From an uncultured Armatimonadia bacterium (GTDB lineage: Bacteria > Armatimonadota > Zipacnadia > UBA1398 > CAZMGT01): a DNA stretch of 64,000 nt. This document shows, piece after piece, positions 10,106-64,000 of this stretch. Each line of letters starts with the position of its first letter. The first letter of the stretch is position 1. A program made the position numbers and the translations under genes. The stretch spans positions 93-64,092 of the forward strand of contig CAZMGT010000015.1 in assembly GCA_964565895.1 (NCBI GenBank), written 5' to 3'. Under the pieces are notes generated by a model. It did no database searches and was not told the DNA's origin. It worked only from the letters and a program-made list of their open reading frames with translations.

Positions 10106-10137
10106 CGGCGGTTCCTCCACTGGCTGAGGTACCGCTC

Positions 10138-13956: not shown

Positions 13957-13967
13957 GATCGCGGGAC

Positions 13968-21580: not shown

Positions 21581-21622
21581 ACCGCTTCCCTCGCTTGTCG
21601 TTCGCTTGCCCTGCTCTGGGGG

Positions 21623-41168: not shown

Positions 41169-41295
41169 GGGCGCTTCACTCCTTTCCGCCTCAGCGGGCG
41201 TCTTCGCCGCGCGTTCCACGCACGCCTGCCTGGGCCGCGCAGCGCTCGCCGCGCTTGGCGCCCCCGCCTGCTGCGGGAAAAGGGGAGAGACGGCA

Positions 41296-46126: not shown

Positions 46127-46368
46127 TTCCCGCTCCTCCCTTCGCTCGCGGGCCGCGCAGGCGGGCGCGCCCAGCGATGAGACACCGCGGACACCTTCGC
46201 GTTTCCCACGCGCGCGGGCGGTGGGCCGACTGCCCCCGCGCTGGTGCTCCCGTCCCCTCGCGTTTCCCAGACGCCGGGCGATGGCCCGAGGCGAAGGGCA
46301 GGCGCGGGGCGCTTTAGAACAACCCTTGCCAGCAGGCCCCACCGTGCGGGCGATGGAGGGTGAGGCAG

Positions 46369-50803: not shown

Positions 50804-52519
50804 CTAGCGCGCGATGCGCGGCGAGGGCAGGTTGTTAAACACCTGCTCGAGCGAGATCTCGCCGCTGCGCGCTTTCTCCAGGCCGACCTCCATGAGCGGG
50901 CGGAAGCCCGCGCGCAACGCTGCTCGGCGCAGCTCCTCCTCCGGCGCGCCCTGGCCCACAAGCTGGCGCAGCTCGCCGCCCAGCGAGAGCGACTCGGCCA
51001 CCGCGGTGAGCCCAGCCAAACCCCGCCCGCGGCACGTGGGGCATCCCCGCCCGCGGAAAAACGGCCCCTGCACGGGGTGCCCGAGCATGTCCTCGAGCTG
51101 GCCGAGGAGCGTGGGGTCGGGCTCCACCTCCTCGCGACACTGCGGGCAGTTGCGCGCGACCAGCCGCTGGGCCACGACAATGTTCACCGCCGCGGCAAGC
51201 AGGTAGTGCTGCGCACCGAGATCGGCCAGCCGCGCTAGGCTCAAAATGGCGTCCTGCGCGTGGACCGTGGTGAGCACGAGATGCCCGGTAAGCCCCGCGC
51301 GAATGGCGATCTCGCACGTCTCCTGGTCGCGCACCTCGCCGACCATAATTACGTCGGGGTTTTGGCGCAAAATGGCGCGCAGCCCCTCGGCGAACGTCAG
51401 CCCCACCGACTCGTGGACCTCGATCTGCGTTACTCCGTCTAGGATAAGCTCCACGGGGTCCTCGATGGTCATGGTGTTTTTCGTTACGTCCTGCAGCGCC
51501 TTGAGGCAGGCATAAAGCGTGGTCGTCTTTCCCGAGCCCGTGGGGCCGGCGACGATGATTACCCCCTGCTGCTGGTTCAGCGCCCAGTTCAGCCGCCGCA
51601 TGGTGTCCTCGTCGAACCCGACCTGCTGCAGGGCCAGCGTCGAACGGCCGGAGTCGAGGACGCGAATCGCCGCCTTTTCGCCGAAGATCGAGGGCAAAGT
51701 GGCCAGACGCAGATCAATCGCCCGGCCGGCAAACCGCGCCTTAATGTGCCCGTCTTGGGGCACGGAGCGGTTGGTAATGTCCATTCCCGCGAGGACCTTT
51801 AGGTAGGAGATTACCGGCTTTTTCGCGCTCCCCGGCATGCGCAGCACGTTGCGCAACTGCCCGCGCACGCGAAAGCGCACTTGGACGTGGTCCGGGCCGG
51901 GCTCGAAGTGAATGTCGCTCGCCCCCGTCTCTATTGCGTCGGCGATAATATCGTTGACGGTATCCACCACTTGGACTTCCTGTGCTCTGTCCGGGGTCTC
52001 TTCTTCCTCGGAGATAAACTCGATGCGCGCCTTGGCCCGCGCCGGCGCGGGAGCGGCGGAGGCTTCCGTGGTGGGTTCGGAGATAGCATATTTCTGCGCG
52101 AGGACGGAGAGGATCTCGCTCGGCGTGGCGACCACGGGCTGAAGCTGCATGCCCACGTGCTGCCGCGCCTCGTCCAGCGCCTGCAGGTTCGTGGGGTCGG
52201 CCATGGCCAGGTAGGCCGTGCGCTGGTCGGTCGCCCCCGGGGGGCGAAACGGAGCGACGAGGTAGCGCTGGCAGAAGCCGGGGGGCATGCGCGCGAGCAG
52301 CTCGCCGTCCCAGCACAGGCCGCAGTCGCGGGCCAAAGCCAGCCCCATGCGCTCGGCAAGCACCCGCGCCAGGTCGTTGGGGTCGATCAGCCCCAGGTCA
52401 ACGAGCACCGCGCCCAACCGTCGCCCGGGCGCCGAGCGCTGGACGTTTAGCGCATGGCGCAGCGACTCCTCCGTTATCAGCCCCATGCGCACGAGCATTT
52501 CTCCAATTCGTTCGGCCAT
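50804..52519 (-). CDS. PilB/GspE/MshE family secretion ATPase with N-terminal MshEN c-di-GMP-binding motif
   Basis: RIGEMLVRMGLI...LRHALNVQ...RLGAVLVDLGLI; Walker A GPTGSGKTT, EDPVE, LRQNPDVIMVGEVRD, TGHLVLTTVH, CPQC...CPTC. Confidence 0.93.
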   Translation of the reverse strand: MAERIGEMLVRMGLITEESLRHALNVQRSAPGRRLGAVLVDLGLIDPNDLARVLAERMGLALARDCGLCWDGELLARMPPGFCQRYLVAPFRPPGATDQRTAYLAMADPTNLQALDEARQHVGMQLQPVVATPSEILSVLAQKYAISEPTTEASAAPAPARAKARIEFISEEEETPDRAQEVQVVDTVNDIIADAIETGASDIHFEPGPDHVQVRFRVRGQLRNVLRMPGSAKKPVISYLKVLAGMDITNRSVPQDGHIKARFAGRAIDLRLATLPSIFGEKAAIRVLDSGRSTLALQQVGFDEDTMRRLNWALNQQQGVIIVAGPTGSGKTTTLYACLKALQDVTKNTMTIEDPVELILDGVTQIEVHESVGLTFAEGLRAILRQNPDVIMVGEVRDQETCEIAIRAGLTGHLVLTTVHAQDAILSLARLADLGAQHYLLAAAVNIVVAQRLVARNCPQCREEVEPDPTLLGQLEDMLGHPVQGPFFRGRGCPTCRGRGLAGLTAVAESLSLGGELRQLVGQGAPEEELRRAALRAGFRPLMEVGLEKARSGEISLEQVFNNLPSPRIAR

Positions 52520-52548
52520 CGGCAACCACCCTGTCCTCGCCCCCGCCT

Positions 52549-52578
52549 ATTGTACACTATTGTCGCCCGCGGTTGACA
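52549..52578. promoter_or_regulatory. Divergent promoter region: TACAAT (-10, minus strand, for the ATPase) and TTGACA (-35, plus strand)
   Basis: ATTGTA at 52549-52554 and TTGACA at 52573-52578; the partner elements are weak. Confidence 0.35.
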
Positions 52579-52712
52579 GAACGCGCCCCGCGGGGTACGC
52601 AAAATGCGCAGCCCGTGGGCGTCTAACAAAACTGGGCGCTGGCTGCGCAGTGCGCCGCGTTGGCCGGCGGCCTTTAGGGTTTGCACAAAGCGCTTTGCCC
52701 AGGAGGTCGGCT

Positions 52713-55502
52713 GTGCGCAAACGCTGGGAAAAAGCTTTGTGCCTGGCAGCGCTTTGCGCTGGGCTGCTTGCCCTGTGCGCGGGCGCTCGCGCGCAGGAGC
52801 AATATACGTTCGTCGCTCGCCGCGGGACGGGGCCCTATAGCTTCCGTTGCCGCATCGTGGGGCAGTGGGCGCAGGGAAGCGAGGCGCGCCTTGTTTTCGA
52901 CTTTCGCGACGCGGCCAACTTTCGCTACCTCTCCCTAAAGCCCGGCGAGGCAGCGTTTATCGAAGTCGCCGCCGGCGCCTCGCGCACCTTCGCCGGCCCC
53001 GCGGCGGTTGACCTAAACAACGACTTGGCGGTTACCGTGCAGCGCCGCGTGGGGCGCGTAAGGGCGATCGTCGGCGGGCAGGTCATCCTCTCCGCGCAGC
53101 TCGGCGCCCCGCTTGAGGGCCGCGTGGGCTATTTCTGCCGCGGCGCGCAGCTCGAGATAAAAGAACCGCGCGTGCAGCCCGTGGCCGAGGTATATTTCAC
53201 CGACGACTTCGGCCGCGCCGCAGACGACCCGGGGCAGTGGACGATCGTCGCCGGCAAGTGGACAAACACCATGGTCGACGCCCCGCGTGCCCTGCCCGAC
53301 TTTAGCGCCAACCCATTTTCCGTCTGCGCCCAGGGCGCGGACAAAGCCCTCTGTCTTGCGGGAAGCTGGTATTGGGACAGCTACCGCTTCCGCGCCTCCG
53401 TTAACCCGACGAGCGCGCAGGTCGTGGGCATCGCCGGCTACGCGCAAGACGAGCAAAACTACATTCTCTTCCGCTGGCGGCGGGGAAGCTCGAAAATGCG
53501 CCGCGCGAAGCAGCTCGTTCTTGTGCGCAACGGGTTCGAGGAGGTGCTCGCGGAGGCCGACGGCGGGTTCCAGCCCAACCAGTGGTATCGCCTCGAGCTG
53601 CGCTTTGCCGAGGGCTCCGTGCACGCGCTGATCGACCGCTACCCCGTGCTTTCTGCAAAAACTAATGCCTTCGGCCAGGGGCGCGTGGGCTTGTGGCTGA
53701 GGGGCGAGCGGGCGTTTTTCGACGACGTCGCCGTAGTCGGGGCTACGGTAAAGCACGAGCTTGCCGCAAAAATCGCCGAAGGGTTTCAGCATGACTCGGG
53801 CACGGTGGGCGAGGTCTACGGCCCGACGATCCCCTGGCGGCTAAGCCGCGACGGGGCGATCTGGTGGCACCGGGGGATTTTCTTCCACGACGTAGCGGCG
53901 AGCATTCCCCTCAACCCCAAGGCGGGCGACCCGAAGGCGGTTATCGTTCTGGGCAGCGAGGAGCGGCCTGAGGCCGGGCTGGTGGTCCGCTGCCGCTGGC
54001 AGGGGCCGCGCCTGCGCCTGGCGGTTGAGGAAGACGGTGCGCCCCAGGCGCAGTCGGAGGAGTTCGAACCGGCCTCCGGGCAGGATCTCACCGTCAGCTT
54101 CGACGGAAAAAGCCTGTTGCGCGTCGTCACGCAGGGGCGCGAGGTGCTGCGCTATCAGGCCAAGCGCCGCCCGGCGGGCCGCCTGCTCGGAATTATCTCC
54201 GACAACCCCGCCCAGGTGTGGGGGAGCGCTGTGGAGTCCGACCACCAGTTGGAATATCTGTTCTCCGAGGCCCCCACGGACTTCTATAGCACAAAGGGCC
54301 AGTGGCACATTACCACGCGCTGGCCCTGCGAGCCCCGCTGGACGTTTTTCGGCGGCGAAAACGACGAGAACCCCACGGTATGGACGAAGCACATCTATCG
54401 CGGCGACTTTGCCCTGGAGTTTTTCATGAACATCGGCATGGACCTCCCGCGCAGCCCGGGCTATTCCCACCCCAGCGATGTCAACGTAACGGTCTGCGGC
54501 GACGGCCGCTCCCTGGGCAGCGGCTACAGCTTTATCATCGCCGGTTGGAACAACACAAAAACGGCGCTTTTGCGCCGCAGCGAGGTTGTTGCCCAAACGC
54601 GCGAGTTTCTCTTCGAAAACCCCATTAGCGCAAACCCCAAGTTTCACCGGCACTGGTTTAGAGTGCGCGTGGAAAAGGCCGGCCCCACAGTCAGCCTCAC
54701 CGTGGACGACAAGCCCCTGCTGCGCTACACCGATCCCGACCCGTTGCCCGACGGGCGCATTGCCCTGTGGACCTACCACAACAAGCTGATGATCGCCCGG
54801 GGCTACATTTGGTTTGCCGAGGAGCAGCCGGCGGCGCTTCCCGACCCTCCGTCGTGGCCCAAGCGCCAAGAGTTGGCCCGTGGGCGCCGCCAGCCGAACG
54901 TTTTGTTTAACGATTTCGAAAACGACGCCGGCGAGTGGCACACTACGGTGGGCGTCTCCTATAGGCTCCCCACCCTGCTTGAGCTGGACAACTCCACGGC
55001 GGCCGGCGGAAAGCGCAGCCTGAAGATCACTAACATGACCGAGGGCGGGCCGTTTACCGTGTTGGCCATCGATGCCCCGATTAGGCTGCGCGACTACCCG
55101 GTAATCAGCTTCGACTACCGCGTGCCCCCGGAGGTAAAGGTTAACCTCTATTTGCTCCTCGGCGGGGTGTGGCACGCCGTGGAGTTTACCGCGCGCCAGC
55201 CGCAAGGGACGCCGGTTAAGGTCATCGGCGCGTTTGCCGACGTGCGCGCCGACGGCCGTTGGCACCACACCAGTTTCGACCTGCTCACGGCGCTGCGCCG
55301 ACTGTATCCCGGGCGCGAGTATTTCGAGGCGCAATACTTGGCGTTCGCCAGCCCCCAGGAGGACTACGTGCGCTGTGGGATCGGGGGCAACCCTCTGGGG
55401 GCGAGCTATTGGATCGACAACTTCCGCCTGGGGCAGGTGCACTTTGCCTGCCAGCCGCTGCCCGATGTTCCCTCGCTTTTTGCCGCGCGCAGGGTAAGCT
55501 AG
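52713..55502 (+). CDS. Large secreted multi-domain ConA/LamG/DUF1080-like protein with C-terminal CBM-like domain (paralog A)
   Basis: AGGAGG 6 nt before GTG 52713; signal peptide; repeated beta-sandwich motifs (NQWYRLELRF, HWFRVRVEK, GRVGLW, GRIALW); C-terminus NDFEND...GKRSLKITN...WHHTSFDL...WIDNFRLG. Confidence 0.8.
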   Translation: MRKRWEKALCLAALCAGLLALCAGARAQEQYTFVARRGTGPYSFRCRIVGQWAQGSEARLVFDFRDAANFRYLSLKPGEAAFIEVAAGASRTFAGPAAVDLNNDLAVTVQRRVGRVRAIVGGQVILSAQLGAPLEGRVGYFCRGAQLEIKEPRVQPVAEVYFTDDFGRAADDPGQWTIVAGKWTNTMVDAPRALPDFSANPFSVCAQGADKALCLAGSWYWDSYRFRASVNPTSAQVVGIAGYAQDEQNYILFRWRRGSSKMRRAKQLVLVRNGFEEVLAEADGGFQPNQWYRLELRFAEGSVHALIDRYPVLSAKTNAFGQGRVGLWLRGERAFFDDVAVVGATVKHELAAKIAEGFQHDSGTVGEVYGPTIPWRLSRDGAIWWHRGIFFHDVAASIPLNPKAGDPKAVIVLGSEERPEAGLVVRCRWQGPRLRLAVEEDGAPQAQSEEFEPASGQDLTVSFDGKSLLRVVTQGREVLRYQAKRRPAGRLLGIISDNPAQVWGSAVESDHQLEYLFSEAPTDFYSTKGQWHITTRWPCEPRWTFFGGENDENPTVWTKHIYRGDFALEFFMNIGMDLPRSPGYSHPSDVNVTVCGDGRSLGSGYSFIIAGWNNTKTALLRRSEVVAQTREFLFENPISANPKFHRHWFRVRVEKAGPTVSLTVDDKPLLRYTDPDPLPDGRIALWTYHNKLMIARGYIWFAEEQPAALPDPPSWPKRQELARGRRQPNVLFNDFENDAGEWHTTVGVSYRLPTLLELDNSTAAGGKRSLKITNMTEGGPFTVLAIDAPIRLRDYPVISFDYRVPPEVKVNLYLLLGGVWHAVEFTARQPQGTPVKVIGAFADVRADGRWHHTSFDLLTALRRLYPGREYFEAQYLAFASPQEDYVRCGIGGNPLGASYWIDNFRLGQVHFACQPLPDVPSLFAARRVS

Positions 55503-55694
55503 CGTCGCCGCTTTAGCGGCCAGGCCCTTGCCCGCGACTCCAGGGCAAAGCACAGAACATGGGCAAAATCCCTCGCGTCTATAGGGGCGAGGCGCGCGCT
55601 TTCAGCTCTTGCGCAGGCGTGCCCGCTCGTCGCGATAGGCGGCGCGGCGAGCGGGCCGCCCGGCGCATTTTCTGTGGAGGAGGGTGCGGCCGCA

Positions 55695-58457
55695 ATGCGG
55701 CGGTTTGCGGTGCTCGCTGGGTTGTGCTTTGCCGCGGTCTGCGCAGCGTGGGCCCAGGTCCCCAGCGCAAAGCTGGGCTATACCTTTGTCCCCCGCAGGG
55801 GAAGCCTGCCCTATACCATCGTCTGCCGGGCGGCAAGCCAGTGGAGGCCGGGCAACGAGCTGCGCCTTGCCCTGGACTATGCCTCGCCCGACGACCTTTA
55901 TCTCCTGTCCATCTCCCGAGAGAGCGCGGTGTTGCGGCGCATAGAGCGGGGCGAAGAGCGCGAGCTTGCCCGCGCGGCACTGCCCGGCCTGCGCGGAGAG
56001 GAAGAGATTTTCGTGCAGCGCCGGCCAGGGCGGATCGCGGTGATCGTCGGCGGGGAGGTCGTGCTGCGCGCCTCAGCGCCTGGCTCGCTGGAGGGCCGCG
56101 TGGGCTGGGCCGCGCACGGGGTGCAAGTGCACACGCTGCGCGTGCAGCCGGTGGCCGAGGTCTACTTTAGCGACGACTTCGCCCGCCCCCGCGGCGACCC
56201 CGGACAGTGGGCCGTGGCCCGCGGGTCATGGACGAACACCGTGGTTAACGCCCCCCGGGCAAACCCCAACTTTAGCGCAAACCCGTTTTCCGTCTGCGCC
56301 AGCGGCACCCAAGGCGCGCTGAGCATTGCCGGAAGCCCATATTGGGACAACTACCGCTTCCGCGCCTCGGTGCGCCCCACGGACGCGCAGTCGGTGGGCA
56401 TTTTGGGCTATGTGCAAGATGCGGCGAACTATATCACCCTGCGCTGGCGCGCGGGCGGCAGAGCGGCGCGCGGGGCGAAGCAGCTCGTGCTTGTCCGCCA
56501 CGGCAACGAGCGCGTTTTGGCCCAGGCCGACGGCGGGTTTGTCCCCGGGCAGTGGTATCGCTTGGAGCTACGCTTTGCCCCAGGCGCGGTTGAGGGGTGG
56601 ATCGATCGCGAGCGCGTGCTCGTTGCTAGCACCGATGCCTTCGGCCAGGGCAAAATCGGCTTGTGGGCGCAGGGCCGCGAGGTGTTCTTCGACGATGTCC
56701 TGGCAACGAGCGGCGCGGAGACCCTCGAGCCGCTAGACTGCGTCCCCCGTACCCTGCGCGAGGACCGGGGAACCGTCGGCGAAGTATACAGCTCAGCGAT
56801 TGCCTGGCGCACGAGCGACGACGGGGCAATTATTTGGCACAGGGGCGTATTTTTTCACGACGTGGCCATGCGCGTGCCGTTAGACCCCGATCATGGGGGG
56901 CCGCACGCGGTAATCGTCCGCGCGCCCCAGGGCTCGCCAAAGTCCGGCTACGTTGTGCGCTGCGCGTGGCAGGGCAAAGAACTTGAGCTGGCGCTAGAGC
57001 GCGACGGGGCGGTGCTCTGCCGCAGCAAGCGACGCCTTCGCCCGGAGCCGGGGCAGGAGCTTAGCGTGCGGTTTCGCGATGGGGCAATTGCCGTGGCGAG
57101 CTTGGGCGAGGAGCTTCTACGCTACGAGGTCGCCGGCGAGCCGCCGGGCCGCAGCGTCGGCGTGGTCACGTCTACGCCGGAGCTTGCCTGGGGAACCTTG
57201 GTCAGCTCCGACCATCAGTTGGAATATACGTTTGCCGAAGCGCCCACGGACTTTTTTGTCAGCAAAGGCCGCTGGGGGATAACCACGCGCTGGCAGTGCG
57301 AGCCAGAGTGGACGTTCTTCGGCGGCGACAGCGACGAAAACCCCACCGTGCTCACCAAACACGCCTATCGGGGGGACGTCGTCGCCGAGTTCTTTATGAG
57401 CCTGGCCATGCAAGCGGGCGTGCCCATCGGCTACCCTCACGCGAGCGACCTGAACATTAGCGCGTGCGTCGCCGGCCTTAACCCAGGCACCGGCTACAGC
57501 TTTATCGTCGCCGGTTGGAAGAACACGAAAACGGCGATTTTACGCCGCGAGCGCGTCGTCGCCCAAACGGACGATTTCCTGTTTGTCGAACCCACTACAC
57601 GCAACACCAATTTTCACCGGCACTGGTTCCGCGTGCGCGTGGAGAAGGTCGGGCGGCGCGTGTCGCTCGCCGTGGACGACCAGCCGCTGTTGCACTTTGA
57701 GGATCCCCAGCCGCTAGAAGGCGGGCGCATTGCCCTGTGGAGCTTCCGCAACTGGCTCTGCGTGGCGCGCGGGTATATTTGGTTTGCCGAGGAGGAGCCG
57801 GCCCCCTTGCCGGAGCTCCCCCGCGTACAGCGGCTGGAGCTTCCCCATGCGGAGCGCCGCGGGGAGACCCTCTTTTGTGACTTCGAGCGCGACGCCGGCG
57901 AATGGCACGCGGAGATCGAGGGCTATCCCTTGCCCACCATCCTCGCCCTTGACGAGACGACAGCGGCCAGCGGAAAGCGCAGCTTAAAGATAACCAACGC
58001 CACCGTGGGCGGGCCGTTTGCCGCGTATTGCATTGCAAAGCCCCTGCGCCTGCAGCGCTATCCCGTGGTCAGTTTCGACTATCGCCTGCCGCCCGAGGTT
58101 AAGGTCAACTTTTACTTGCTGGTTAACGGCGCGTGGCACGTTGTGCGCTTGTCGGCGGAGCAGCCGGAGGAGTCCGGGGTTAACGTTTTGGGCGAATTCC
58201 CCGGCGTCGTCGCCGACGGCACGTGGCGGCACACGAGTTTTAACCTGCTTTCCGCGCTGAAAAAGCTCTATCCCGAGCACGAGTACTTCGATGCCCAGCA
58301 AATTGCCTTCGCCAGCCCGCAGCTCGACTACGTGCGCTGCGGCATCGGGGGCAACCCCCTCGGCGCGAGCTTTTGGATCGATAACTTCCGCCTGGGGCCC
58401 GCCGCAAACACCAAGCCCAGGGCCCAGGCGTCGGGCAACGAACGGACGGAGCGATGA
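55695..58457 (+). CDS. Large secreted multi-domain ConA/LamG/DUF1080-like protein (paralog B)
   Basis: Collinear with paralog A: VQPVAEVYFSDDF, FSANPFSVCA, NFHRHWFRVRVEK, DYVRCGIGGNPLGASFWIDNFRLG. Confidence 0.82.
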   Translation: MRRFAVLAGLCFAAVCAAWAQVPSAKLGYTFVPRRGSLPYTIVCRAASQWRPGNELRLALDYASPDDLYLLSISRESAVLRRIERGEERELARAALPGLRGEEEIFVQRRPGRIAVIVGGEVVLRASAPGSLEGRVGWAAHGVQVHTLRVQPVAEVYFSDDFARPRGDPGQWAVARGSWTNTVVNAPRANPNFSANPFSVCASGTQGALSIAGSPYWDNYRFRASVRPTDAQSVGILGYVQDAANYITLRWRAGGRAARGAKQLVLVRHGNERVLAQADGGFVPGQWYRLELRFAPGAVEGWIDRERVLVASTDAFGQGKIGLWAQGREVFFDDVLATSGAETLEPLDCVPRTLREDRGTVGEVYSSAIAWRTSDDGAIIWHRGVFFHDVAMRVPLDPDHGGPHAVIVRAPQGSPKSGYVVRCAWQGKELELALERDGAVLCRSKRRLRPEPGQELSVRFRDGAIAVASLGEELLRYEVAGEPPGRSVGVVTSTPELAWGTLVSSDHQLEYTFAEAPTDFFVSKGRWGITTRWQCEPEWTFFGGDSDENPTVLTKHAYRGDVVAEFFMSLAMQAGVPIGYPHASDLNISACVAGLNPGTGYSFIVAGWKNTKTAILRRERVVAQTDDFLFVEPTTRNTNFHRHWFRVRVEKVGRRVSLAVDDQPLLHFEDPQPLEGGRIALWSFRNWLCVARGYIWFAEEEPAPLPELPRVQRLELPHAERRGETLFCDFERDAGEWHAEIEGYPLPTILALDETTAASGKRSLKITNATVGGPFAAYCIAKPLRLQRYPVVSFDYRLPPEVKVNFYLLVNGAWHVVRLSAEQPEESGVNVLGEFPGVVADGTWRHTSFNLLSALKKLYPEHEYFDAQQIAFASPQLDYVRCGIGGNPLGASFWIDNFRLGPAANTKPRAQASGNERTER

Positions 58458-59521
58458 CTAGAGGCGCGATAGTCATGCTCTTGCTCGCGGCTTTCCCCGC
58501 GGGTGTTTTCGCCCAGCCCCCGGCGGTTGGCGCGCCGAAGGTGGGCGTCGTCGTAGACATCGGCGCGGGCCGTATTTTGCTTTCCGACGGGACGATCGCC
58601 AACATCGCCCCGCAGGCGGTGGTCGTTACGGCGGAGGGGGAGAAAAAGGCGCTGCGCGACGTCCTCCCCGGGCAATTGGTCGAGGCCCACTGCGTGGATG
58701 AGCTAACGGTGGTTAAGCTCGTCCTCCTTCCCGCGCTGCCCAAAACGTTTCCCATGAGCAAATTCGACCCGCCGCAGGGCAAGATTGTGCGCTGCACCTG
58801 GCAGCACGAGGGCAAACAGTATAAGAACAGCTTTCGCACGGCCTACGCGGTGATGCCCGTGGCCACATGCTTGGGCATTCGCGCCACGGTGTGCTATGAG
58901 CCGAAAGACCCCGCCCGCAAGAGCGCGATCTTTAGGGTCGTTGGCTACGACGACCAGCCGGAGCGCGTGGTTTGGGAGCGCGAGGTGCGCGCGGGCGAAG
59001 CTGTGGAGCTGCGCTGCTCGTTCTACGGCCTAAAGTGGGTGGCGCTGACCTGCCTGCTCCCGGAGGGGGCGCAGGCCGACGATGCCGAGTGCGTGTGGGC
59101 CGACCCGGAGCTGGTCCTTAGGGTTTACCGCGCCCTCCCCGTGCCCGAGCTGTTCGCCAGCGAGCTGGCGCGGCGCGTGGGCCAAGCGATAAGGGAGGCG
59201 GGCGCGGAGCCCGTGGCCATCGCTCGGCCCCAGGTGCTTGGGCTTAGCCCCGAGGTCGGGCGCGAGCTGCTGGAAAAACTCTTGCCCGCGCTCAAAAGCG
59301 GCTGTGCCGTGGCCGCAACGCTGGAGCAAGAGGGGAGCGCCCCGCCCCGGGGCGCGCTCTATGAGGAGGCACGCAAAGCGGGGGCGGAGGCGTTGCTTGT
59401 CCTCCGCGTGCGCTATGACCCACCTGGTTTTGCCGTCGTCGCTTCGCTTTACGGCGTAGACAGCGCCGAACAGCTAGCGAGTTTTGAGCTAAACACGTTC
59501 ACGCCGCTCGTCTCGCGCTAG
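58454..59521 (+). CDS. Secreted hypothetical protein (DUF5666-like, NPCBM/CBM51-like and FlgO/TolB-N-like segments)
   Basis: ATGA coupling; signal peptide; AIFRVVG...VWEREVRAGEAVELRC...VWADPELV; C-terminus AEALLVLRVR...VVASLYGVDSAEQLASF. Confidence 0.6.
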   Translation: MTRGAIVMLLLAAFPAGVFAQPPAVGAPKVGVVVDIGAGRILLSDGTIANIAPQAVVVTAEGEKKALRDVLPGQLVEAHCVDELTVVKLVLLPALPKTFPMSKFDPPQGKIVRCTWQHEGKQYKNSFRTAYAVMPVATCLGIRATVCYEPKDPARKSAIFRVVGYDDQPERVVWEREVRAGEAVELRCSFYGLKWVALTCLLPEGAQADDAECVWADPELVLRVYRALPVPELFASELARRVGQAIREAGAEPVAIARPQVLGLSPEVGRELLEKLLPALKSGCAVAATLEQEGSAPPRGALYEEARKAGAEALLVLRVRYDPPGFAVVASLYGVDSAEQLASFELNTFTPLVSR

Positions 59522-59599: not shown

Positions 59600-61366
59600 A
59601 TGGGCCTTGAGGAGCAGATACGCCGCCACTGGTATGTCTCGCGGCTGGATGGCGCGCGCATACCCTACCTCGTATTCGTACCGCGCAGCTACCGCGGCGC
59701 GCCCGTGCCCGCCGTCTACTCGCTCCATGGCTATGGCCGGGACGAATGGGGCGGCGTGCGCGAGCACCTGCTCGAGCTGTGCGAGCGATATGGCTGGCTG
59801 CTTGTGTCGACCGCAGGGCGCGGGTGGACGTTTTACGACGGCCCGGGCGAGCAGGACTTCCTCGAGGTTTGGGAGCGCGTGGCCCAGCGCTATGCCATAG
59901 ACTTTTCCCGCATATACCTCGTGGGACACTCCATGGGCGGGACGGGGACGCTGCGCTTGGCCACGCGTTTTCCAGACCGCTTCGCCGCCGCCGTTGCCCT
60001 TTGCCCGTGGAGCGACTGGCGCCTGTGGTATCGCCGGTGGTACGCCTCCGCGGAGCACCCACGGGCGGTCCCCTGGTGGCGCAGGGTGCTGCTCGAGCGC
60101 GCATCGCCGCTGTTCTATGCGGAGAACCTGCTTCACGTTCCCCTGTACCTTTTGCACGGCGTTCGCGATGACGTTGTGAGCGTAAAACACTCTCGTCGGC
60201 TTTATCGGCGCCTGCGCGAGCTGCGCTACGAGGTGGTCTATAAGGAGTACGTGCGCAGCGGCCACGGGCGGTTTGCGGGACGCCTTGCCGCGGCGTTTCG
60301 CTGGCTTGCCGGCCAAACGCGCCCTCGGCACTGGCTCGGCGGAGCGCAACCTCTGGCGCGCACCGAGAAAAGGGAAAAGACGCGGCCGAAGGCGCCCTCT
60401 CGCATTGTTCTCCGCGTGGGCGCTCTGCGCCACGCCCGCGCCTACTGGCTGAGCGTGGAGCAGCTCGACGACCCAACAACGCCCGCGCGCGTGCAAACGG
60501 AGATCGCCCCCGAGACGTGCCAGGGCCCCGCCCGAATCGCCCTGCGTTGCGCGGGAGCCCGGCGGTTGGTTGTTGATTTTGGCGCAGCCCCGCTCCGCCC
60601 CGGGGAGCAGGTTGAAGTAGCGCTTGGCGGAGCCCCTGTTTTCCAAGGCAGGGCCCGGGGAACGCTCGCCCTGGAGCGCGACGAGAGGGGCCGCTGGGCG
60701 GCAAACCCGCCCCCAAGCGCTGCTTTGTGCAAGGCGCCAGGGCTCGAGGGACCCTGGGGCGACGCCCTGTGCGACAGCTTCCTTGTGGTCTTCGGCGACG
60801 ACCCGCGCGAGCGCGAGCTCGCCGAACAATTCGCCTTGGCCTGGGGCCGCTGGACGGTTGGCCTGCGCGAGGACGGCGCGCCCCGCGCCCAAGCGCGAAT
60901 CAAACACGCCGCGGCGGTAACTCGCGCAGAGGTCGCGCAGCACAACCTCGTCCTTTTCGGCCGGCCGCGCGACAACGCGCTTTTGCGCACAGTGCTCGAC
61001 GAGCTGCCCGTGGCCATTAGCAACGACGGGATCACGCTCGCCGGCGAGAGGTTTCGCGGGCGACACTTTGGCCTGCGGCTGATATATCCCAACCCGCTTA
61101 ACCCGCGGCGCTACGTGGCGCTTTCGGTGGGGCGGCTGCCCCTGCGCACAAAGGATTTCGAGTGCCTCCCCTGGCTTGTGCCCGATTTCGCGGTGTTCGA
61201 CGAACGGATACAATGTAGCCGGACCACGCACATGGAGTGGGAGCTTTTCGACGCTGGAGAGTGGCCGGAAGGCGCCGAGCCGCCGCAGGTGCACCTCCCC
61301 GACTGCCTGGTGTGCGCGGGCTTTTTCGACTCGTTCTGGCGGCTGGGAAAGGTGAGCGAGAGGTGA
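59600..61366 (+). CDS. Alpha/beta hydrolase (esterase / S9-like) with C-terminal extension, no obvious signal peptide
   Basis: YLVFVPRSY, SLHGYG, GHSMGG, LHGVRDDVV, SGHG (Ser-Asp-His triad). Confidence 0.85.
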   Translation: MGLEEQIRRHWYVSRLDGARIPYLVFVPRSYRGAPVPAVYSLHGYGRDEWGGVREHLLELCERYGWLLVSTAGRGWTFYDGPGEQDFLEVWERVAQRYAIDFSRIYLVGHSMGGTGTLRLATRFPDRFAAAVALCPWSDWRLWYRRWYASAEHPRAVPWWRRVLLERASPLFYAENLLHVPLYLLHGVRDDVVSVKHSRRLYRRLRELRYEVVYKEYVRSGHGRFAGRLAAAFRWLAGQTRPRHWLGGAQPLARTEKREKTRPKAPSRIVLRVGALRHARAYWLSVEQLDDPTTPARVQTEIAPETCQGPARIALRCAGARRLVVDFGAAPLRPGEQVEVALGGAPVFQGRARGTLALERDERGRWAANPPPSAALCKAPGLEGPWGDALCDSFLVVFGDDPRERELAEQFALAWGRWTVGLREDGAPRAQARIKHAAAVTRAEVAQHNLVLFGRPRDNALLRTVLDELPVAISNDGITLAGERFRGRHFGLRLIYPNPLNPRRYVALSVGRLPLRTKDFECLPWLVPDFAVFDERIQCSRTTHMEWELFDAGEWPEGAEPPQVHLPDCLVCAGFFDSFWRLGKVSER

Positions 61367-62547
61367 GGAAGGGAGCGACAAGTGCCATCCTCGCGCTTTT
61401 GCTGCTAGCGGCCCCGATTGCCTCACAACGCGCGAGCAGCTTCGCTGGCCGCCTACGGCCCACCGCTGCGCCAGGGGGCGCGGTGCGCGTGGCCGCTGCG
61501 GCACGCCCCGTGCGCCCCTTGCCCTGGTGGGACCGCCGCTGGCACTACCGCCTCACGCTGCGCGTAGGCGCTGGGCCGCGCTGGCGTGTGGACTGCCCCA
61601 TTGAGGCGCGCGTTGACCTCCAGCGCTACCTCCGCCGCCCGCTAGACGAGGCCTCAGTGCGCGTGGTGTTTCGCCGGCGGCTTGTTCCCGCGCAATATGA
61701 CGTGCGAACGGGGACGCTGGTGTTTGTCGCCCGCGGCGAAATTCGCCCGGGGACGGCGCGGACGTACGAGGTCTACTTCGACGAACGCCGGCGAACGCCA
61801 AAGCCCAAGCACACCTTCCGCGGAGCGCAGGCGCGCCAAGCTCCGGGCGGTGCGGTATGGCTGGAGAACGAGCGATTGCGTTTGCTGCTCTCGCCCGAGG
61901 GCGGCCGCGCCGCGCGCTGGGAGGTTCTCGCGCTCGGCGAGAGGGACATCGCGCGGTGGGCCGAGCGCGAGCCGCGCGGGTTTTTCTACAACCCCCTGCT
62001 TTATAACAAGCGAGCAACGCTCGCCCCGCTGCTTGTGGGGCCTGTCGCCGTGCGCTACCGCTGTAGCTTCCCCCAAGGCCCGAGCTATACCATTACCCTT
62101 TATTCCGGAATGAGCTGGGCCGAGGTGGTGTGGGACACGCCGCTGGACAGCTTTTGGTGTTACGATTCCCTAGGCGGCGACAAGGGAGCCGCGTGGCAGA
62201 CGGCTTGCTCGGCAACGGCGCAGCGCGAGGCGCTCGAACAAGCGCTTTATTGCCGCGGCGCGCGCTGGGTGGCAAAGCACAGGGCCGATGGCCTGGCCCT
62301 GGGCCTCGTCGTTCCCGAGGTAGACTGCGCCATGGGCGTGGAGCTGCGCGGAGAACGCAGCGGGGTAGGCATTTCCCGCTCCACTCCGGCGGCGCACTTT
62401 GTCGTCGTCGGCGACGTTCTGGGCAGGTTCGACGCGGCGTTTTGGGAAACGCTGCGCCGCACGCTTGACCATACCCTGCCCCCTGTGGTTGACATTGGGC
62501 CGCTGGAGAGGCTCAACGCCGCGGGGAAAATTACCGCCACGGGCTGA
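61363..62547 (+). CDS. Secreted hypothetical protein with DUF2341-like N-terminal domain and beta-supersandwich-like C-terminal domain
   Basis: GTGA coupling; signal peptide; WWDRRWHYRLTLRV...YEVYFD; WLENERLRLLLSPEGGR...GPVAVRY. Confidence 0.6.
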   Translation: MRKGATSAILALLLLAAPIASQRASSFAGRLRPTAAPGGAVRVAAAARPVRPLPWWDRRWHYRLTLRVGAGPRWRVDCPIEARVDLQRYLRRPLDEASVRVVFRRRLVPAQYDVRTGTLVFVARGEIRPGTARTYEVYFDERRRTPKPKHTFRGAQARQAPGGAVWLENERLRLLLSPEGGRAARWEVLALGERDIARWAEREPRGFFYNPLLYNKRATLAPLLVGPVAVRYRCSFPQGPSYTITLYSGMSWAEVVWDTPLDSFWCYDSLGGDKGAAWQTACSATAQREALEQALYCRGARWVAKHRADGLALGLVVPEVDCAMGVELRGERSGVGISRSTPAAHFVVVGDVLGRFDAAFWETLRRTLDHTLPPVVDIGPLERLNAAGKITATG

Positions 62548-62565
62548 GCGCAAGGGAAAGGGAAA

Positions 62566-63768
62566 ATGACCGACGAGCTGCGCGAGCGAGCGCGGGAGCT
62601 TAAGCGAGAGCTGCGCGAGACCTGTGGCGTGGCGCGCGGGGAGGCGCGCGTTGTCCTCTCCCCCTACCGCGTCTGCCCCATCGGGGCCCACGTAGACCAC
62701 CAGCTTGGCCTAGTTTGCGGAATGGCCATTAACCGCAGCGTGCTCTTGGCCTATGCCCCGAGCGGCACGGGCGAGGTCCGCCTGCGCAGCAGGGACTTCC
62801 CCGGCGAGGTGCGCTTTTCGCTAGACGACATTCCGCCGGCGCGCGGGGAGGACTGGGGAAACTACGTCCGCGGGGCGGCGCTGGCCCTCAAGCGCGAACA
62901 TACGCTTAAGCAGGGGATCGTCGGCCTCGTCGCCGGGAGCATGCCCATCGGGGGGCTGAGCTCGTCCGCTGCGGTGGGCATCGCCTATCTCTTCGCGTTG
63001 GAGGAGGCGAACTCTCTCGCGCTTGACGCGAAGGCGAATATCCGCTTGATGCAGGTTATCGAAAACGAATACATTGGCCTAAACAACGGGATCCTCGACC
63101 AGTCGATGATCCTCCTCAGCGAGCGGGGGCGCCTGGTGAGCTTGGACTGCCTCACCGAGGAGGGCGAGACCGTGGCCCCGGGCGCGGCGATGCCCCAGTT
63201 CGCCATTGCCGTAGTCTACTCCGGGGTGAGCGAAGCGCTCGTGTCTACAGACTATAACCGCCGGGTGGCGGAGTGCGAGGAGGCGGCGCGGCTTTTGCTG
63301 CGCGCCGCAGGGCTGGAGGCGCCGCCGGGCGCCAAGCTACGCCACGTTCCGCGCGAGGTGTTCGAAGCTTACGCCCGCGAGCTGCCGCACAATCTGCGCC
63401 GGCGAGCGACACACTTTTTCGGCGAGCTTAAGCGTGTGGAGCAAGGAGTTGCCGCGTGGCGCGCGGGGGATCTTACGCGCTTTGGAGAGTTAGTTAGCGC
63501 CTCGGGCGAGAGCTCGATCGTCAACTACGAGTGCGGCTCGCCGGAGCTGACGGAGATCTATCGCCTGCTCCTCGCCTGCGAGGGGGTATATGGGGCGCGG
63601 TTTAGCGGGGCCGGCTTTCGCGGTTCGTGCATCGCGCTCTGCTCTCCGGAGGCGGAGGAGGAGATTCGCCGCGCGATGGAGGAGGAATACGCGCGCAAAT
63701 TCCCAAAATTGGCGGGGAGTTTTGAAGTTCACCTGTGTTCCCCAGACGACGGAGCGAGATTTGTATGA
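62566..63768 (+). CDS. GHMP kinase of galactokinase fold, most similar in motifs to plant galacturonokinase (GalAK)
   Basis: SPYRVCPIGAHVDHQ, GGLSSSAAV, ENEYIGLNNGILDQ, DYNRRVAECEEAA, SSIVNYECG, GVYGARFSGAGFRG. Confidence 0.85.
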   Translation: MTDELRERARELKRELRETCGVARGEARVVLSPYRVCPIGAHVDHQLGLVCGMAINRSVLLAYAPSGTGEVRLRSRDFPGEVRFSLDDIPPARGEDWGNYVRGAALALKREHTLKQGIVGLVAGSMPIGGLSSSAAVGIAYLFALEEANSLALDAKANIRLMQVIENEYIGLNNGILDQSMILLSERGRLVSLDCLTEEGETVAPGAAMPQFAIAVVYSGVSEALVSTDYNRRVAECEEAARLLLRAAGLEAPPGAKLRHVPREVFEAYARELPHNLRRRATHFFGELKRVEQGVAAWRAGDLTRFGELVSASGESSIVNYECGSPELTEIYRLLLACEGVYGARFSGAGFRGSCIALCSPEAEEEIRRAMEEEYARKFPKLAGSFEVHLCSPDDGARFV

Positions 63769-64000
63769 AGTCCATCATCCTTGCCGCAGGCTATGCTACG
63801 CGGATGTATCCGCTCACGCGCGACTTCCCCAAGCCACTCCTGCCTTTGGGGAAGACAACGATCCTCGACCTGTGCCTGGAGCAGGTGGCCGACGTGCCCC
63901 AGGTGGATGCCGTGTATATCGTTTCCAACAACCGGTTTATCGAGCACTTTCGGCGCTGGCTTGCCCAGCGCAAGGCGGACGACGGCCTGCCCATTGAGCT
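63765..64000 (+). CDS. Sugar-1-phosphate nucleotidyltransferase (NTP_transferase family), 3'-truncated by the window edge
   Basis: MKSIILAAGYATRMYPLTRDFPKPLLP...IVSNNRF; ATGA overlap with the kinase stop. Confidence 0.92.
   Translation, partial: MKSIILAAGYATRMYPLTRDFPKPLLPLGKTTILDLCLEQVADVPQVDAVYIVSNNRFIEHFRRWLAQRKADDGLPIE

What the first reader, a model, noticed from the sequence alone, without database searches (positions are those of the whole stretch)
62566..64000. Plant-type galacturonokinase coupled to a nucleotidyltransferase: a bacterial UDP-GalA salvage route
Seen: the substrate-binding motif at 62662-62700 reads PYRVCPIGAHVDH, not the bacterial GalK signature PGRVNLIGEHTDY, so the galactose-C6-OH-binding Glu is replaced by Ala. 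Further motifs are ENEYIGLNNGILDQ, SSIVNYECG and GVYGARFSGAGFRG. From memory, plant GalAK (EC 2.7.1.44) has PYRICPLGAHIDHQ, SSIENYECG and GVYGARFSGAGFRG, with the Glu-to-Ala change linked to uronate specificity. The stop overlaps the ATG of an NTP-transferase. Known: bacteria usually make UDP-GalA by epimerising UDP-GlcA and catabolise free GalA by the isomerase or oxidative routes, while GalA to GalA-1-P to UDP-GalA is the plant salvage pathway. Inference: a bacterial version of that pathway, and possibly the prokaryotic source clade of plant GalAK.
Basis: partly seen in the sequence, partly recalled or inferred. Interest (0 to 1): 0.8.

Follow-up and report, generated by a model that had tools for sequence, protein, structure and literature searches.

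The report
Bacterial galacturonate kinase–nucleotidyltransferase salvage pair
The end of the window encodes a bacterial relative of the plant enzyme that phosphorylates galacturonic acid, translationally coupled to a sugar-phosphate nucleotidyltransferase; the pair probably recycles free galacturonate into an activated sugar for glycan synthesis, and it belongs to a very widespread family that nobody appears to have tested in bacteria.

Summary
ORF 62566-63768 (+, 400 aa) carries all four quoted motifs at the stated coordinates. Its TGA overlaps the ATG of a PF00483 nucleotidyltransferase (ATGA at 63765-63768), which the window end cuts off.

The kinase is 45-47% identical to real plant GalAK sequences (310 bits) and 31% to E. 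coli GalK. It misses every NCBIfam galactokinase cut-off. It separates from GalK with 100% bootstrap. All GalK sugar ligands are kept except Glu->Ala41, and motif III reads GFRG as in plants.

The family is large: at least 577 species in a dozen or more bacterial phyla. JGI already labels some members 'galacturonokinase'. No paper on a bacterial enzyme turned up.

A nucleotidyltransferase lies directly downstream in 45 of 75 testable genomes, in two non-orthologous subtypes. UDP-glucose dehydrogenase and an SDR 4-epimerase (the de novo UDP-GalA route), sugar importers, or a polysaccharide locus are often adjacent.

The best reading is uronate, most likely GalA, going to the 1-phosphate and then to an NDP-sugar, probably UDP-GalA, for glycan synthesis. 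The partner is not exclusive to the kinase and may be a broad UDP-sugar pyrophosphorylase. Plant GalAK nests inside the bacterial radiation, but this lineage is not its specific sister. No activity has been tested.

The parts
62552..62565 (+). Purine-rich Shine-Dalgarno-like stretch (AAGGGAAAGGGAAA) just upstream of the kinase ATG, 18 nt after the stop of the preceding ORF
   Evidence: Read directly from the sequence
62566..63768 (+). GalAK-type GHMP sugar-1-kinase, 400 aa, intact and full length against its homologues
   Evidence: PF10509, PF00288, PF08544; 45% identity and 310 bits to Arabidopsis GalAK
62662..62700 (+). Sugar-binding motif I, PYRVCPIGAHVDH. It holds Arg35, Ala41 (Glu in GalK), His42 and Asp44
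   Evidence: (P33 R35 G40 A41 H42 D44 H45 invariant in 30 bacterial homologues)
62944..62973 (+). GHMP motif II, PIGGLSSSAA (phosphate/ATP-binding loop)
63061..63102 (+). ENEYIGLNNGILDQ, with Asp178 at the position of the GalK catalytic Asp (GIMDQ)
63253..63255 (+). Tyr230 codon. It is equivalent to Tyr250 of Arabidopsis GalAK and to the GalK sugar-binding Tyr, and is invariant in the family
63511..63537 (+). SSIVNYECG motif, shared with plant GalAK (SSIENYECG)
63583..63624 (+). Motif III, GVYGARFSGAGFRG. It has Ala349 and Arg352 where GalK has GGGFGG, and is identical to the plant motif
63765..63768 (+). ATGA overlap of the kinase stop and the nucleotidyltransferase start (translational coupling)
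   Evidence: One search placed the two genes end to end with no gap in 10 of the 80 related genome loci
63765..64000 (+). 5' part (78 codons) of a short PF00483 sugar-1-phosphate nucleotidylyltransferase with the signature ILAAGYATRMYPLT, cut by the window end
   Evidence: 107 bits to the short-subtype HMM against 23 bits to the long subtype

Best explanation
This is a two-gene salvage module for an activated uronic acid.

Step 1 (inferred from orthology). The GHMP kinase (62566-63768) phosphorylates free D-galacturonate at C1, with ATP, to give alpha-D-GalA-1-P. It uses the GalK catalytic machinery: Arg35, Asp178, His42, Asp44 and Tyr230. Ala41 replaces the Glu that in GalK sits next to the C6 hydroxyl, so a C6 carboxylate can fit. 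Arg352 in motif III (GFRG against GFGG) is a candidate counter-charge.

Step 2 (inferred from gene coupling). The translationally coupled PF00483 nucleotidyltransferase condenses the sugar-1-phosphate with an NTP, most likely UTP, to give UDP-GalA. In relatives the module sits beside UDP-glucose 6-dehydrogenase and an SDR 4-epimerase, beside sugar importers, or at the head of a polysaccharide locus. The product therefore most likely tops up the same UDP-uronate pool that feeds capsule, EPS or envelope glycan synthesis, using uronate released from pectin-like polymers.

Shown here: orthology to GalAK, motif conservation, gene coupling and gene context. Not shown: substrate, nucleotide and destination.
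For: - **Orthology.** The kinase is 45-47% identical to plant GalAKs (310 bits, E 5e-107) and 31% identical to E. coli GalK. The best solved GalK scores 147 bits.
- **Not a GalK by curated models.** All five NCBIfam galactokinase equivalogs are below cut-off (best 211 against 443; TIGR00131 184 against 226.65).
- **Phylogeny.** In an NJ tree of 125 sequences the Ala-type family separates from GalK in 100% of 200 bootstraps.
- **Motifs.** A41, Y230, A349 (>=90%) and R352 are invariant or nearly so in 30 bacterial homologues. They match the plant positions A41, Y250 and A368.
- **Kinase to transferase coupling.** A nucleotidyltransferase lies directly downstream on the same strand in 45 of 75 testable GTDB loci. 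These span Chloroflexota, Armatimonadota, Verrucomicrobiota, Latescibacterota, Calditrichota, Bacteroidota, Firmicutes, Spirochaetota and Proteobacteria.
- **Two partner subtypes.** Two non-orthologous transferase subtypes fill that slot, 21 loci each. This argues that the coupling itself is under selection.
- **UDP-uronate context.** UDP-glucose 6-dehydrogenase and an SDR epimerase recur next to the module: 8 and 17 genome loci, and 10 and 9 metagenome loci. The L054 epimerase scores 370 bits to PDB 5u4q. It also scores 133 bits to the entries 6zl6/6zld, which UDP-GlcA 4-epimerase papers cite.
- **Anabolic and uptake context.** Tidjanibacter L054 reads ugd-epimerase-kinase-NT-Wzx-like-?-GT1. 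L048 has an SSF symporter after the pair, and L002 has an ABC sugar importer.
Against: - No enzymatic data exist for any bacterial member.
- 45% identity does not fix substrate specificity in GHMP sugar kinases. From memory of Yang et al. 2009, a single Y250F change lets plant GalAK take GlcA.
- The window itself holds no ugd, no 4-epimerase and no obvious GalA transferase in 64 kb. Its five upstream genes are not conserved near the kinase elsewhere.
- 27 of 75 genomes have no adjacent nucleotidyltransferase.
- The reciprocal test failed for exclusivity. Only 26 (+3 nearby) of 74 metagenomic loci with this transferase subtype have the kinase upstream. 18 follow glnD and others sit in housekeeping synteny, or next to ugd without a kinase. 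The transferase may therefore be a general UDP-glucose or UDP-sugar pyrophosphorylase.
- The nucleotide specificity is unknown. The best solved relative scores only 58 bits and no NCBIfam equivalog is reached.
Confidence: 0.68

Rival explanations
1. The architecture is the same (an anomeric kinase plus a nucleotidyltransferase salvaging a sugar into an NDP-sugar), but the physiological substrate is not GalA. It could be GlcA or another hexuronate, an N-acetyl-hexosaminuronate, or a C6-modified or C6-less galacto-sugar such as L-arabinose.
For: Specificity in this fold shifts with single substitutions (memory of Yang et al. 2009: Y250F gives GlcA activity). Some contexts point to other uronates: a heparinase II/III or alginate-lyase-like gene and an SDR upstream in L002, and a UxuA-like mannonate dehydratase in Latescibacterota. 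The Ala-type family has subclades with motif III variants GFKG, GFNG and GFGG, which may mean several specificities. An adjacent 4-epimerase could convert UDP-GlcA made by salvage.
Against: The window protein shares the exact plant motif set, including GFRG and the Tyr that (from memory) enforces the galacto C4 configuration. The GalK ligands for the galacto-configured O3/O4 (Asp44, Tyr230) are invariant. Plant GlcA kinase is an unrelated GHMP lineage (PMC2823444).
Confidence: 0.17
2. It is an ordinary Leloir-pathway galactokinase, as some NCBI and JGI records name its homologues, and the downstream gene is unrelated.
For: Pfam finds the galactokinase signature domain PF10509 (40.8 bits), and all top NCBIfam hits are galactokinase models. 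Several sources name homologues 'galactokinase'.
Against: All GalK equivalog scores are well under their cut-offs. The signature Glu is Ala in every one of the 150 best representatives. Bootstrap separation from GalK is 100%. The score to GalAK is twice that to any GalK. No galT, galE or galM lies adjacent. Instead there is a coupled PF00483 transferase, conserved across phyla.
Confidence: 0.03
3. The kinase is a GalA kinase, but the downstream transferase is the cell's general UDP-glucose (or broad UDP-sugar) pyrophosphorylase. In that case the two are co-located mainly because both feed the ugd/epimerase route, and the transferase is not a dedicated GalA-1-P enzyme.
For: The AAGYATR transferase subtype is found without the kinase in 45 of 74 metagenome loci. 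These include housekeeping synteny (after glnD; between prfB/rluD-like and prmA) and positions directly after ugd (L091, L092). Its best solved and NCBIfam relatives are UDP-glucose pyrophosphorylases (8x7s; AglF), though below threshold.
Against: ATGA or short-gap coupling to the kinase recurs across phyla, and a second non-orthologous transferase subtype takes the same slot. That is hard to explain unless the kinase product is handed to the transferase. A broad-specificity enzyme would still complete the salvage, as plant USP does.
Confidence: 0.3

Closest known systems
Plant galacturonokinase GalAK (Arabidopsis At3g10700, EC 2.7.1.44) acting with UDP-sugar pyrophosphorylase USP
   Same: The kinase is a clear homologue: 45-47% identity over the full length, with motif III identical and motif I and the SSIxNYECG motif near-identical, including Ala41, Tyr250-equivalent and Ala368-equivalent. 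The two-step logic is the same: sugar to sugar-1-P to NDP-sugar.
   Different: The bacterial proteins lack the roughly 19-residue plant insertion after motif I and keep the GalK-like 'MPIGGLSSS' loop. The second enzyme is a PF00483 RmlA/GalU-fold transferase, not the PF01704 UDPGP-family USP. The two genes are operonic and translationally coupled. No biochemical data exist.
Galactokinase GalK (EC 2.7.1.6; E. coli, human GALK1, L. lactis)
   Same: The GHMP fold and domain set are the same. The catalytic Arg and Asp are conserved, as are most sugar ligands (Arg35, His42, Asp44, Asp178, Tyr230).
   Different: Identity is 31%. It falls below all curated GalK cut-offs. Motif I has Glu->Ala, and motif III reads GFRG where GalK has GFGG. 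There are no Leloir neighbours.
Bacteroides Fkp (bifunctional L-fucokinase / GDP-fucose pyrophosphorylase) - own knowledge
   Same: It works alike: a GHMP-type anomeric kinase coupled to a nucleotidyltransferase lets a glycan-degrading bacterium put a scavenged monosaccharide straight into its own surface glycans. Gut Bacteroidota (Tidjanibacter, Prevotella, Phocaeicola) carry the present module, in Tidjanibacter at the head of a polysaccharide locus.
   Different: The sugar and nucleotide differ. Here there are separate genes rather than one fused protein. It is not an orthologue.
AmgK-MurU (Pseudomonas MurNAc/GlcNAc anomeric kinase + MurNAc-1-P uridylyltransferase) - own knowledge
   Same: It is a kinase plus PF00483 uridylyltransferase salvage bypass running parallel to a de novo UDP-sugar route. 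MurU models give weak hits to the partner (35 bits).
   Different: AmgK is an APH-type kinase, not a GHMP kinase. The substrate is different, and MurU cut-offs are not reached.
Glucuronokinase GlcAK (plants; zebrafish kinase/pyrophosphorylase fusion)
   Same: It belongs to a uronate salvage pathway to a UDP-uronic acid. In zebrafish the kinase is fused to a putative pyrophosphorylase (PMC2823444, PMC3938481).
   Different: [quoted passage not shown] The window protein belongs to the GalAK/GalK branch.

Membership tests
Galacturonokinase, GalAK type (EC 2.7.1.44) | GHMP kinase domain set with an N-terminal GalK-like sugar-binding motif | tested here: met
   PF10509 (40.8 bits), PF00288 (45.4) and PF08544 (48.2), all above gathering cut-offs
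Galacturonokinase, GalAK type (EC 2.7.1.44) | Closer to characterised plant GalAK than to any GalK, and in the same clade | tested here: met
   310 bits and 45% identity to P0121, against 147 bits to the best GalK structure and 31% identity to E. coli GalK. The GalK outgroup splits off in 100% of 200 NJ bootstraps
Galacturonokinase, GalAK type (EC 2.7.1.44) | Ala at the motif I position that is Glu in GalK (At A41), the conserved Tyr (At Y250), and GAGFRG in motif III (At A368) | tested here: met
   Ala41, Tyr230, Ala349 and Arg352. That these residues govern specificity rests on my memory of Yang et al. 2009, which could not be read
Galacturonokinase, GalAK type (EC 2.7.1.44) | ATP-dependent phosphorylation of D-GalA at C1 | not testable with these tools
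   Needs an enzyme assay. No bacterial member is reported in the searchable literature
Galactokinase GalK (EC 2.7.1.6) | Reaches a curated equivalog score | tested here: not met
   NF003006 211 against 443; NF003705 194 against 385; TIGR00131 184 against 226.65; NF003472 174 against 499; NF001816 136 against 509
Galactokinase GalK (EC 2.7.1.6) | Signature GR(V)NLIGEHxDY with the Glu | tested here: not met
   The window reads YRVCPIGAHVDH. In every one of the 150 best representatives where this motif could be read, the position is GAH (one reads GCH); none has the Glu
Galactokinase GalK (EC 2.7.1.6) | Leloir-pathway gene context (galT, galE, galM) | tested here: not met
   Upstream neighbours are two hypothetical proteins, an S9-type hydrolase and two large proteins with only sub-threshold DUF6250 / 3-keto-disaccharide-hydrolase hits. 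The downstream gene is a PF00483 transferase
UDP-sugar pyrophosphorylase USP (plant 'Sloppy', UDPGP family PF01704) | UDPGP-family domain | tested here: not met
   The partner hits PF00483 and PF12804 only, both in the window fragment and in full-length relatives
RmlA/GalU-type sugar-1-phosphate nucleotidylyltransferases (PF00483) | NTP_transferase domain with an N-terminal G-rich loop, Arg and Lys | tested here: met
   PF00483 at E 4e-26 (176 aa) and 4e-29 (full-length L002 relative). A7 G9 R13 T18 K23 are invariant, including against E. coli RmlA
RmlA/GalU-type sugar-1-phosphate nucleotidylyltransferases (PF00483) | Assignable to a characterised equivalog (RmlA, GalU, GlmU, MurU, HddC, GlgC, ManC) | tested here: not met
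   All NCBIfam scores are far below cut-off (best AglF 70-76 against 400). The best solved structure scores 58 bits
RmlA/GalU-type sugar-1-phosphate nucleotidylyltransferases (PF00483) | Activity on GalA-1-P with UTP | not testable with these tools
   Inferred only from coupling to the kinase and from the ugd/epimerase context

The most novel reading that the evidence does not exclude
A widespread bacterial module lets polysaccharide-degrading bacteria, gut Bacteroidota included, put pectin-derived galacturonate directly into their own capsule, EPS or envelope glycans. It consists of a GalAK-type kinase and a previously uncharacterised 'AAGYATR' RmlA-fold uridylyltransferase that acts as a bacterial, non-homologous counterpart of plant USP. 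It occurs in at least 577 species and a dozen or more phyla. On this reading the green-plant GalAK was acquired from this bacterial family.
Probability: 0.3. Interest if true: 0.65.

Novelty: new variant of a known kind. Interest (0 to 1): 0.5.

Why it matters
If confirmed, bacteria would have a second route to UDP-GalA besides ugd plus the 4-epimerase. That would explain a large set of genes now named 'galactokinase', 'galactokinase family protein' or 'hypothetical'. It would link pectin degradation to surface-glycan synthesis in soil, sediment and gut bacteria, much as Fkp does for fucose.

It would also supply compact bacterial, possibly thermostable, enzymes for one-pot synthesis of UDP-GalA, which is costly to make. 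The partner transferase subfamily has no characterised member. The nesting of plant GalAK inside a bacterial radiation bears on how the pectin-recycling toolkit of plants arose.

The gain is incremental rather than conceptual. The chemistry is known from plants, and orthology-based pipelines already guess the function.

Tried and rejected
1. **Primary paper.** I tried to read Yang et al. 2009 (GalAK) by DOI, PMC id and PMID. It is not held, so the residue-function statements (A41E, Y250F, A368S) rest on memory.
2. **Literature.** Searches for a bacterial galacturonokinase used the terms galacturonokinase, GalAK, GalA kinase, GalA-1-P, K18677 and EC 2.7.1.44. They returned only plant papers or nothing. 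Searches for papers listing the human GALK1 sugar ligands found nothing. The role of the GalK Glu at the C6 hydroxyl is therefore also from memory.
3. **Upstream operon partners.** The five upstream window genes have no homologue in 82 kinase loci, so I rejected them as partners.
4. **De novo route in the window.** I looked for ugd or a 4-epimerase in the 64 kb window with HMMs built from the neighbour clusters and found none.
5. **Dedicated partner.** I tested whether the AAGYATR transferase is an exclusive partner of the kinase. It is not: 26 (+3) of 74 loci.
6. **Other readings of the neighbouring SDR.** UDP-xylose synthase and RmlB are rejected. The best characterised matches are hexuronate and HexNAc 4-epimerases, the RmlB model scores 163 against 365, and no UXS appears among the solved-structure hits at E<=1e-20.
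7. **Structure prediction.** I did not run it. The tool returns no coordinates, so the Ala41-Arg352 geometry could not be measured.
Full report
**1. Observation**

The window ends with an intact 400-codon ORF at 62566-63768 on the + strand.
- It starts at ATG, 18 nt after the stop of the preceding ORF, behind a purine-rich stretch (AAGGGAAAGGGAAA).
- The TGA of this ORF overlaps the ATG of the next one (ATGA, 63765-63768).
- The next ORF runs off the window after 78 codons and is a PF00483 NTP_transferase.
- A second public contig encoding a protein identical to the window's kinase (L001) extends that gene to 176 codons and confirms the family (E 4e-26).

**2. What the kinase is**

Pfam finds the three domains of a GalK-like GHMP kinase. 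All five NCBIfam galactokinase equivalogs are nevertheless missed by a wide margin, for example 211 bits against a cut-off of 443, and TIGR00131 at 184 against 226.65. The best solved structure, human GALK1, scores only 147 bits.

That returned real plant galacturonokinases. The Arabidopsis cluster representative P0121 is 97% identical to the recalled sequence, and dozens of further hits are named galacturonokinase by NCBI or UniRef.

Against P0121 the window protein gives 310 bits, E 5e-107, and 45% identity over the whole length. It is 46-47% identical to the Vitis and Magnolia proteins and 31% to E. coli GalK, fetched from NC_000913.

The alignment shows the following.
- The residues that bind the sugar in GalK are kept: Arg35, His42, Asp44, Asp178 and Tyr230.
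- The one exception is the motif I Glu, which is Ala41 here, in plants, and in all 30 bacterial homologues aligned.
- Motif III reads GAGFRG as in plants, where GalK has GGGFGG.

From my memory of Yang et al. 2009 (JBC 284:21526; not readable here), A41, Y250 and A368 are the positions that were mutated in Arabidopsis GalAK, and Y250F opened the enzyme to GlcA. The window protein has the wild-type plant residue at all three. That the GalK Glu contacts the C6 hydroxyl is also from memory. I could not find a held paper to cite.

**3. Phylogeny**

A full HMMER scan of 1.84 billion 50%-identity representatives with P0121 found 249 representatives at E<=1e-30. Wherever motif I could be read among the best 150, the position is GAH (one reads GCH); none has the Glu. 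Motif III varies between subclades: GFRG, GFKG, GFNG and GFGG.

I built a neighbour-joining tree from 125 sequences and 388 columns, rooted with E. coli GalK and human GALK1.
- The Ala-type family separates from GalK in 100% of 200 bootstraps.
- The window protein pairs with its 68%-identical relative P0002 in 99.5% of replicates, inside a large bacterial core clade.
- Land plants group with the zygnematophyte algae Spirogloea, Mesotaenium and Closterium, with 53% support.
- That plant-algal group is basal to all bacterial sequences in only 1% of replicates.

Plant GalAK therefore nests inside a bacterial radiation. Some bacterial proteins, for example from a KSB1 bacterium and from 'Candidatus Zipacnadales', are 45-50% identical to the Arabidopsis enzyme, about as close as the algal ones at 50-54%. 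The chlorophyte Micromonas has an Ala-type kinase that does not join the streptophytes.

This fits a bacterial origin of the plant gene. The method is weak, however (NJ, two outgroups). The direction of transfer is not proven, and the window's lineage is not the specific sister of plants.

**4. Distribution**

The family is large. The word-indexed search returned thousands of hits at 52-68% identity, from Armatimonadota, Anaerolineae and BRC1/Sumerlaeota among others. Several are named 'galacturonokinase' or 'galactokinase/galacturonokinase' by JGI. NCBI calls them galactokinase, galactokinase family protein, GHMP family kinase or hypothetical protein.

They come from these phyla and groups:
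- Chloroflexota, Armatimonadota, Planctomycetota and Verrucomicrobiota
- Latescibacterota, Calditrichota, KSB1 and Sumerlaeota
- Bacteroidota (Tidjanibacter, Prevotella, Phocaeicola)
- Spirochaetota, Firmicutes and Proteobacteria

Nearly all are MAGs. Proteiniclasticum sp. C24MP is an isolate.

**5. Gene context**

I scored the 80 best genome loci with HMMs.
- 45 of the 75 loci with enough downstream DNA have a PF00483 nucleotidyltransferase directly downstream on the same strand.
- The gap is usually 0-60 nt, and in 10 loci the two genes abut with no gap (the arrangement that is an ATGA overlap in the window).
- In one more locus an epimerase lies between kinase and transferase.
- Two different transferase subtypes occupy the slot, 21 loci each.
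  - The short subtype is about 245-275 aa, carries the signature ILAAGYATR(L/M)YPLT, and is the window's type (107 bits against 23 bits).
  - The long subtype is about 317 aa with a left-handed beta-helix tail.

The slot has therefore been filled twice by non-orthologous enzymes. That argues that the kinase-to-transferase hand-over is what selection maintains.

Other recurrent neighbours are an SDR epimerase/dehydratase (17 loci) and UDP-glucose 6-dehydrogenase (8 loci). The Tidjanibacter SDR (L054) scores 370 bits to PDB 5u4q and 133 bits to the 6zl6/6zla/6zld group. UDP-glucuronic acid 4-epimerase papers cite 6ZLD. The same SDR misses the RmlB, GalE and TviC cut-offs.

Typical arrangements are listed here.

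| Locus | Organism | Gene order |
|---|---|---|
| L054 | Tidjanibacter | ugd - epimerase - kinase - transferase - Wzx-like flippase - unknown - GT1 glycosyltransferase |
| L075 | Phocaeicola | kinase - epimerase - transferase - ugd |
| L069 | Proteiniclasticum | epimerase - epimerase - ugd - kinase - transferase |
| L048 | Proteobacteria MAG | kinase - transferase - sodium:solute symporter |
| L002 | metagenome contig | kinase - transferase - ABC sugar importer, with a heparinase II/III or alginate-lyase-like gene upstream |

The module thus repeatedly sits with the de novo UDP-GlcA to UDP-GalA route, with sugar uptake, and in one case at the head of a polysaccharide locus.

**6. The partner enzyme**

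The transferase is a divergent member of PF00483.
- No NCBIfam equivalog is approached. The best is AglF, a UDP-glucose pyrophosphorylase, at 70-76 bits against a cut-off of 400.
- The best solved structure, 8x7s, a UTP-glucose-1-phosphate uridylyltransferase, scores 58 bits. RmlA structures score about 50 bits.
- Aligned with E. coli RmlA, it has Asn at the position of RmlA Gln83. From memory that residue reads the pyrimidine base, so this is only a weak hint towards UTP or dTTP.
- It is not related to the PF01704 UDP-sugar pyrophosphorylase that completes the plant pathway.

The reciprocal test was informative. Among 74 metagenomic loci carrying this subtype with enough upstream DNA, the results were these.
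- 26 have the kinase directly upstream, and 3 more have it within about 600 nt.
- 18 follow glnD.
- Others lie in a release-factor / pseudouridine synthase / prmA neighbourhood.
- Some follow ugd without any kinase (L091, L092).
- ugd and an SDR epimerase recur in 10 and 9 of the 80 loci.

The transferase is therefore tied to UDP-uronate metabolism but is not a private partner of the kinase. It may be a broad UDP-sugar, or even UDP-glucose, pyrophosphorylase that also takes the kinase product, as plant USP does.

**7. The window itself**

The window is 65% G+C. The five genes upstream of the kinase are listed below.

| Coordinates | Size | Pfam result |
|---|---|---|
| 52287-55502 | 1071 aa | sub-threshold DUF6250 / 3-keto-disaccharide-hydrolase hits; tandem paralogue of the next gene |
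| 55674-58457 | 927 aa | sub-threshold 3-keto-disaccharide-hydrolase hit |
| 58454-59521 | 355 aa | none |
| 59600-61366 | 588 aa | S9-type alpha/beta hydrolase |
| 61363-62547 | 394 aa | none; signal-peptide-like N-terminus |

- None of these five has a homologue near the kinase in other genomes.
- No ugd or 4-epimerase lies in the 64 kb.
- The rest of the window looks like a glycan degrader: two sulfatases, a pectate-lyase-fold protein (43823-46378, -), GH17-like and GH99-like proteins, a glycogen debranching enzyme and a sugar-binding protein.
- The organism is probably an Armatimonadota-like bacterium, judged only from the nearest kinase relatives.

**8. Mechanism and rivals**

Best explanation (confidence 0.68). 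Free galacturonate is phosphorylated at C1 by the GalAK-type kinase. The coupled transferase then converts it to an NDP-sugar, most likely UDP-GalA, which supplements the ugd/epimerase route for glycan synthesis.
- Shown here: orthology to GalAK, residue conservation, gene coupling and context.
- Inferred: substrate, nucleotide and destination.

Rivals.
- Same module, different sugar (GlcA, another uronate, or L-Ara), 0.17.
- The transferase is a general UGPase or USP-like enzyme rather than a dedicated one, 0.30. This is compatible with the main model as long as the enzyme still accepts GalA-1-P.
- Ordinary galactokinase, 0.03.

**9. Novelty**

The chemistry is known from plants, and KO-based pipelines already label some bacterial members. 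I found no paper describing or testing a bacterial galacturonokinase or a GalA-1-P nucleotidylyltransferase of this type. NCBI's curated models do not recognise the family.

I rate it a new variant of a known kind. The kinase is orthologous to the plant enzyme. The second enzyme is non-homologous and uncharacterised, and the organisation is operonic. The family is common, the function is the one orthology would predict, and the window instance is truncated.

Noticed in passing
window 52287-55502 and 55674-58457 (+): Two very large tandem paralogous ORFs (1071 and 927 aa). They have only sub-threshold hits to DUF6250 and 3-keto-disaccharide hydrolase (concanavalin/LamG-like) domains. Their function is unknown, and no homologue lies near the kinase in other genomes.
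   Followed up: partly
window 20150-21622 (-), 28896-30323 (-), 43823-46378 (-), 13959-15062 (+), 39588-41525 (-): Two sulfatases, an 852-aa protein with a pectate-lyase / rhamnogalacturonase-A-like fold, a GH17-like protein and a GH99/DUF5010-like protein. The host looks like a degrader of complex, partly sulfated or pectic glycans, which could supply free uronates.
   Followed up: partly
window 7436-10135 (-): A 900-aa ORF combines DEAD/DEAH helicase domains with a C-terminal OmpR-type Trans_reg_C DNA-binding domain. This is an unusual fusion.
   Followed up: no
window 47962-50004 (+): A 680-aa protein made of DUF6785 plus DUF6784 (430 and 100 bits). It is a well-conserved family with no known function.
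   Followed up: no
L015, L018, L024, L025, L027, L030, L032, L034, L053 (Anaerolineae and other Chloroflexota loci), about 1.5-3.5 kb upstream of the kinase: A bifunctional ATP-sulfurylase/APS-kinase (PAPS synthesis) gene, in most of these loci followed by a small unknown gene and an SDR, precedes the kinase in nine Chloroflexota (mostly Anaerolineae) genomes that lack an adjacent nucleotidyltransferase. This may link to sulfated glycans, or it may be lineage synteny only.
   Followed up: partly
L102, L110, L114, L120, L123, L128, L130, L135, L140, L141, L143, L145, L157-L160, L163 and others (metagenome loci): The AAGYATR nucleotidyltransferase subtype sits directly after glnD (PII uridylyltransferase) in 18 loci, many from soil samples, with a bactofilin gene downstream and no kinase. 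In L091 and L092 it follows ugd directly.
   Followed up: partly
P0304 (Micromonas commoda) and representatives P0241-P0390: The Ala-type kinase family also occurs in a chlorophyte, which does not cluster with streptophyte GalAK in the NJ tree. Subclades differ in motif III (GFRG, GFKG, GFNG, GFGG), which may mark different sugar specificities.
   Followed up: partly
L062, L067, L072, L073, L080 (Latescibacterota loci): A UxuA-like mannonate dehydratase gene (below cut-off) lies divergently upstream of the kinase in four of the five loci (further upstream in L080). In four of the five loci (plus L043) a conserved 407-aa protein with no Pfam hit follows the nucleotidyltransferase directly.
   Followed up: no
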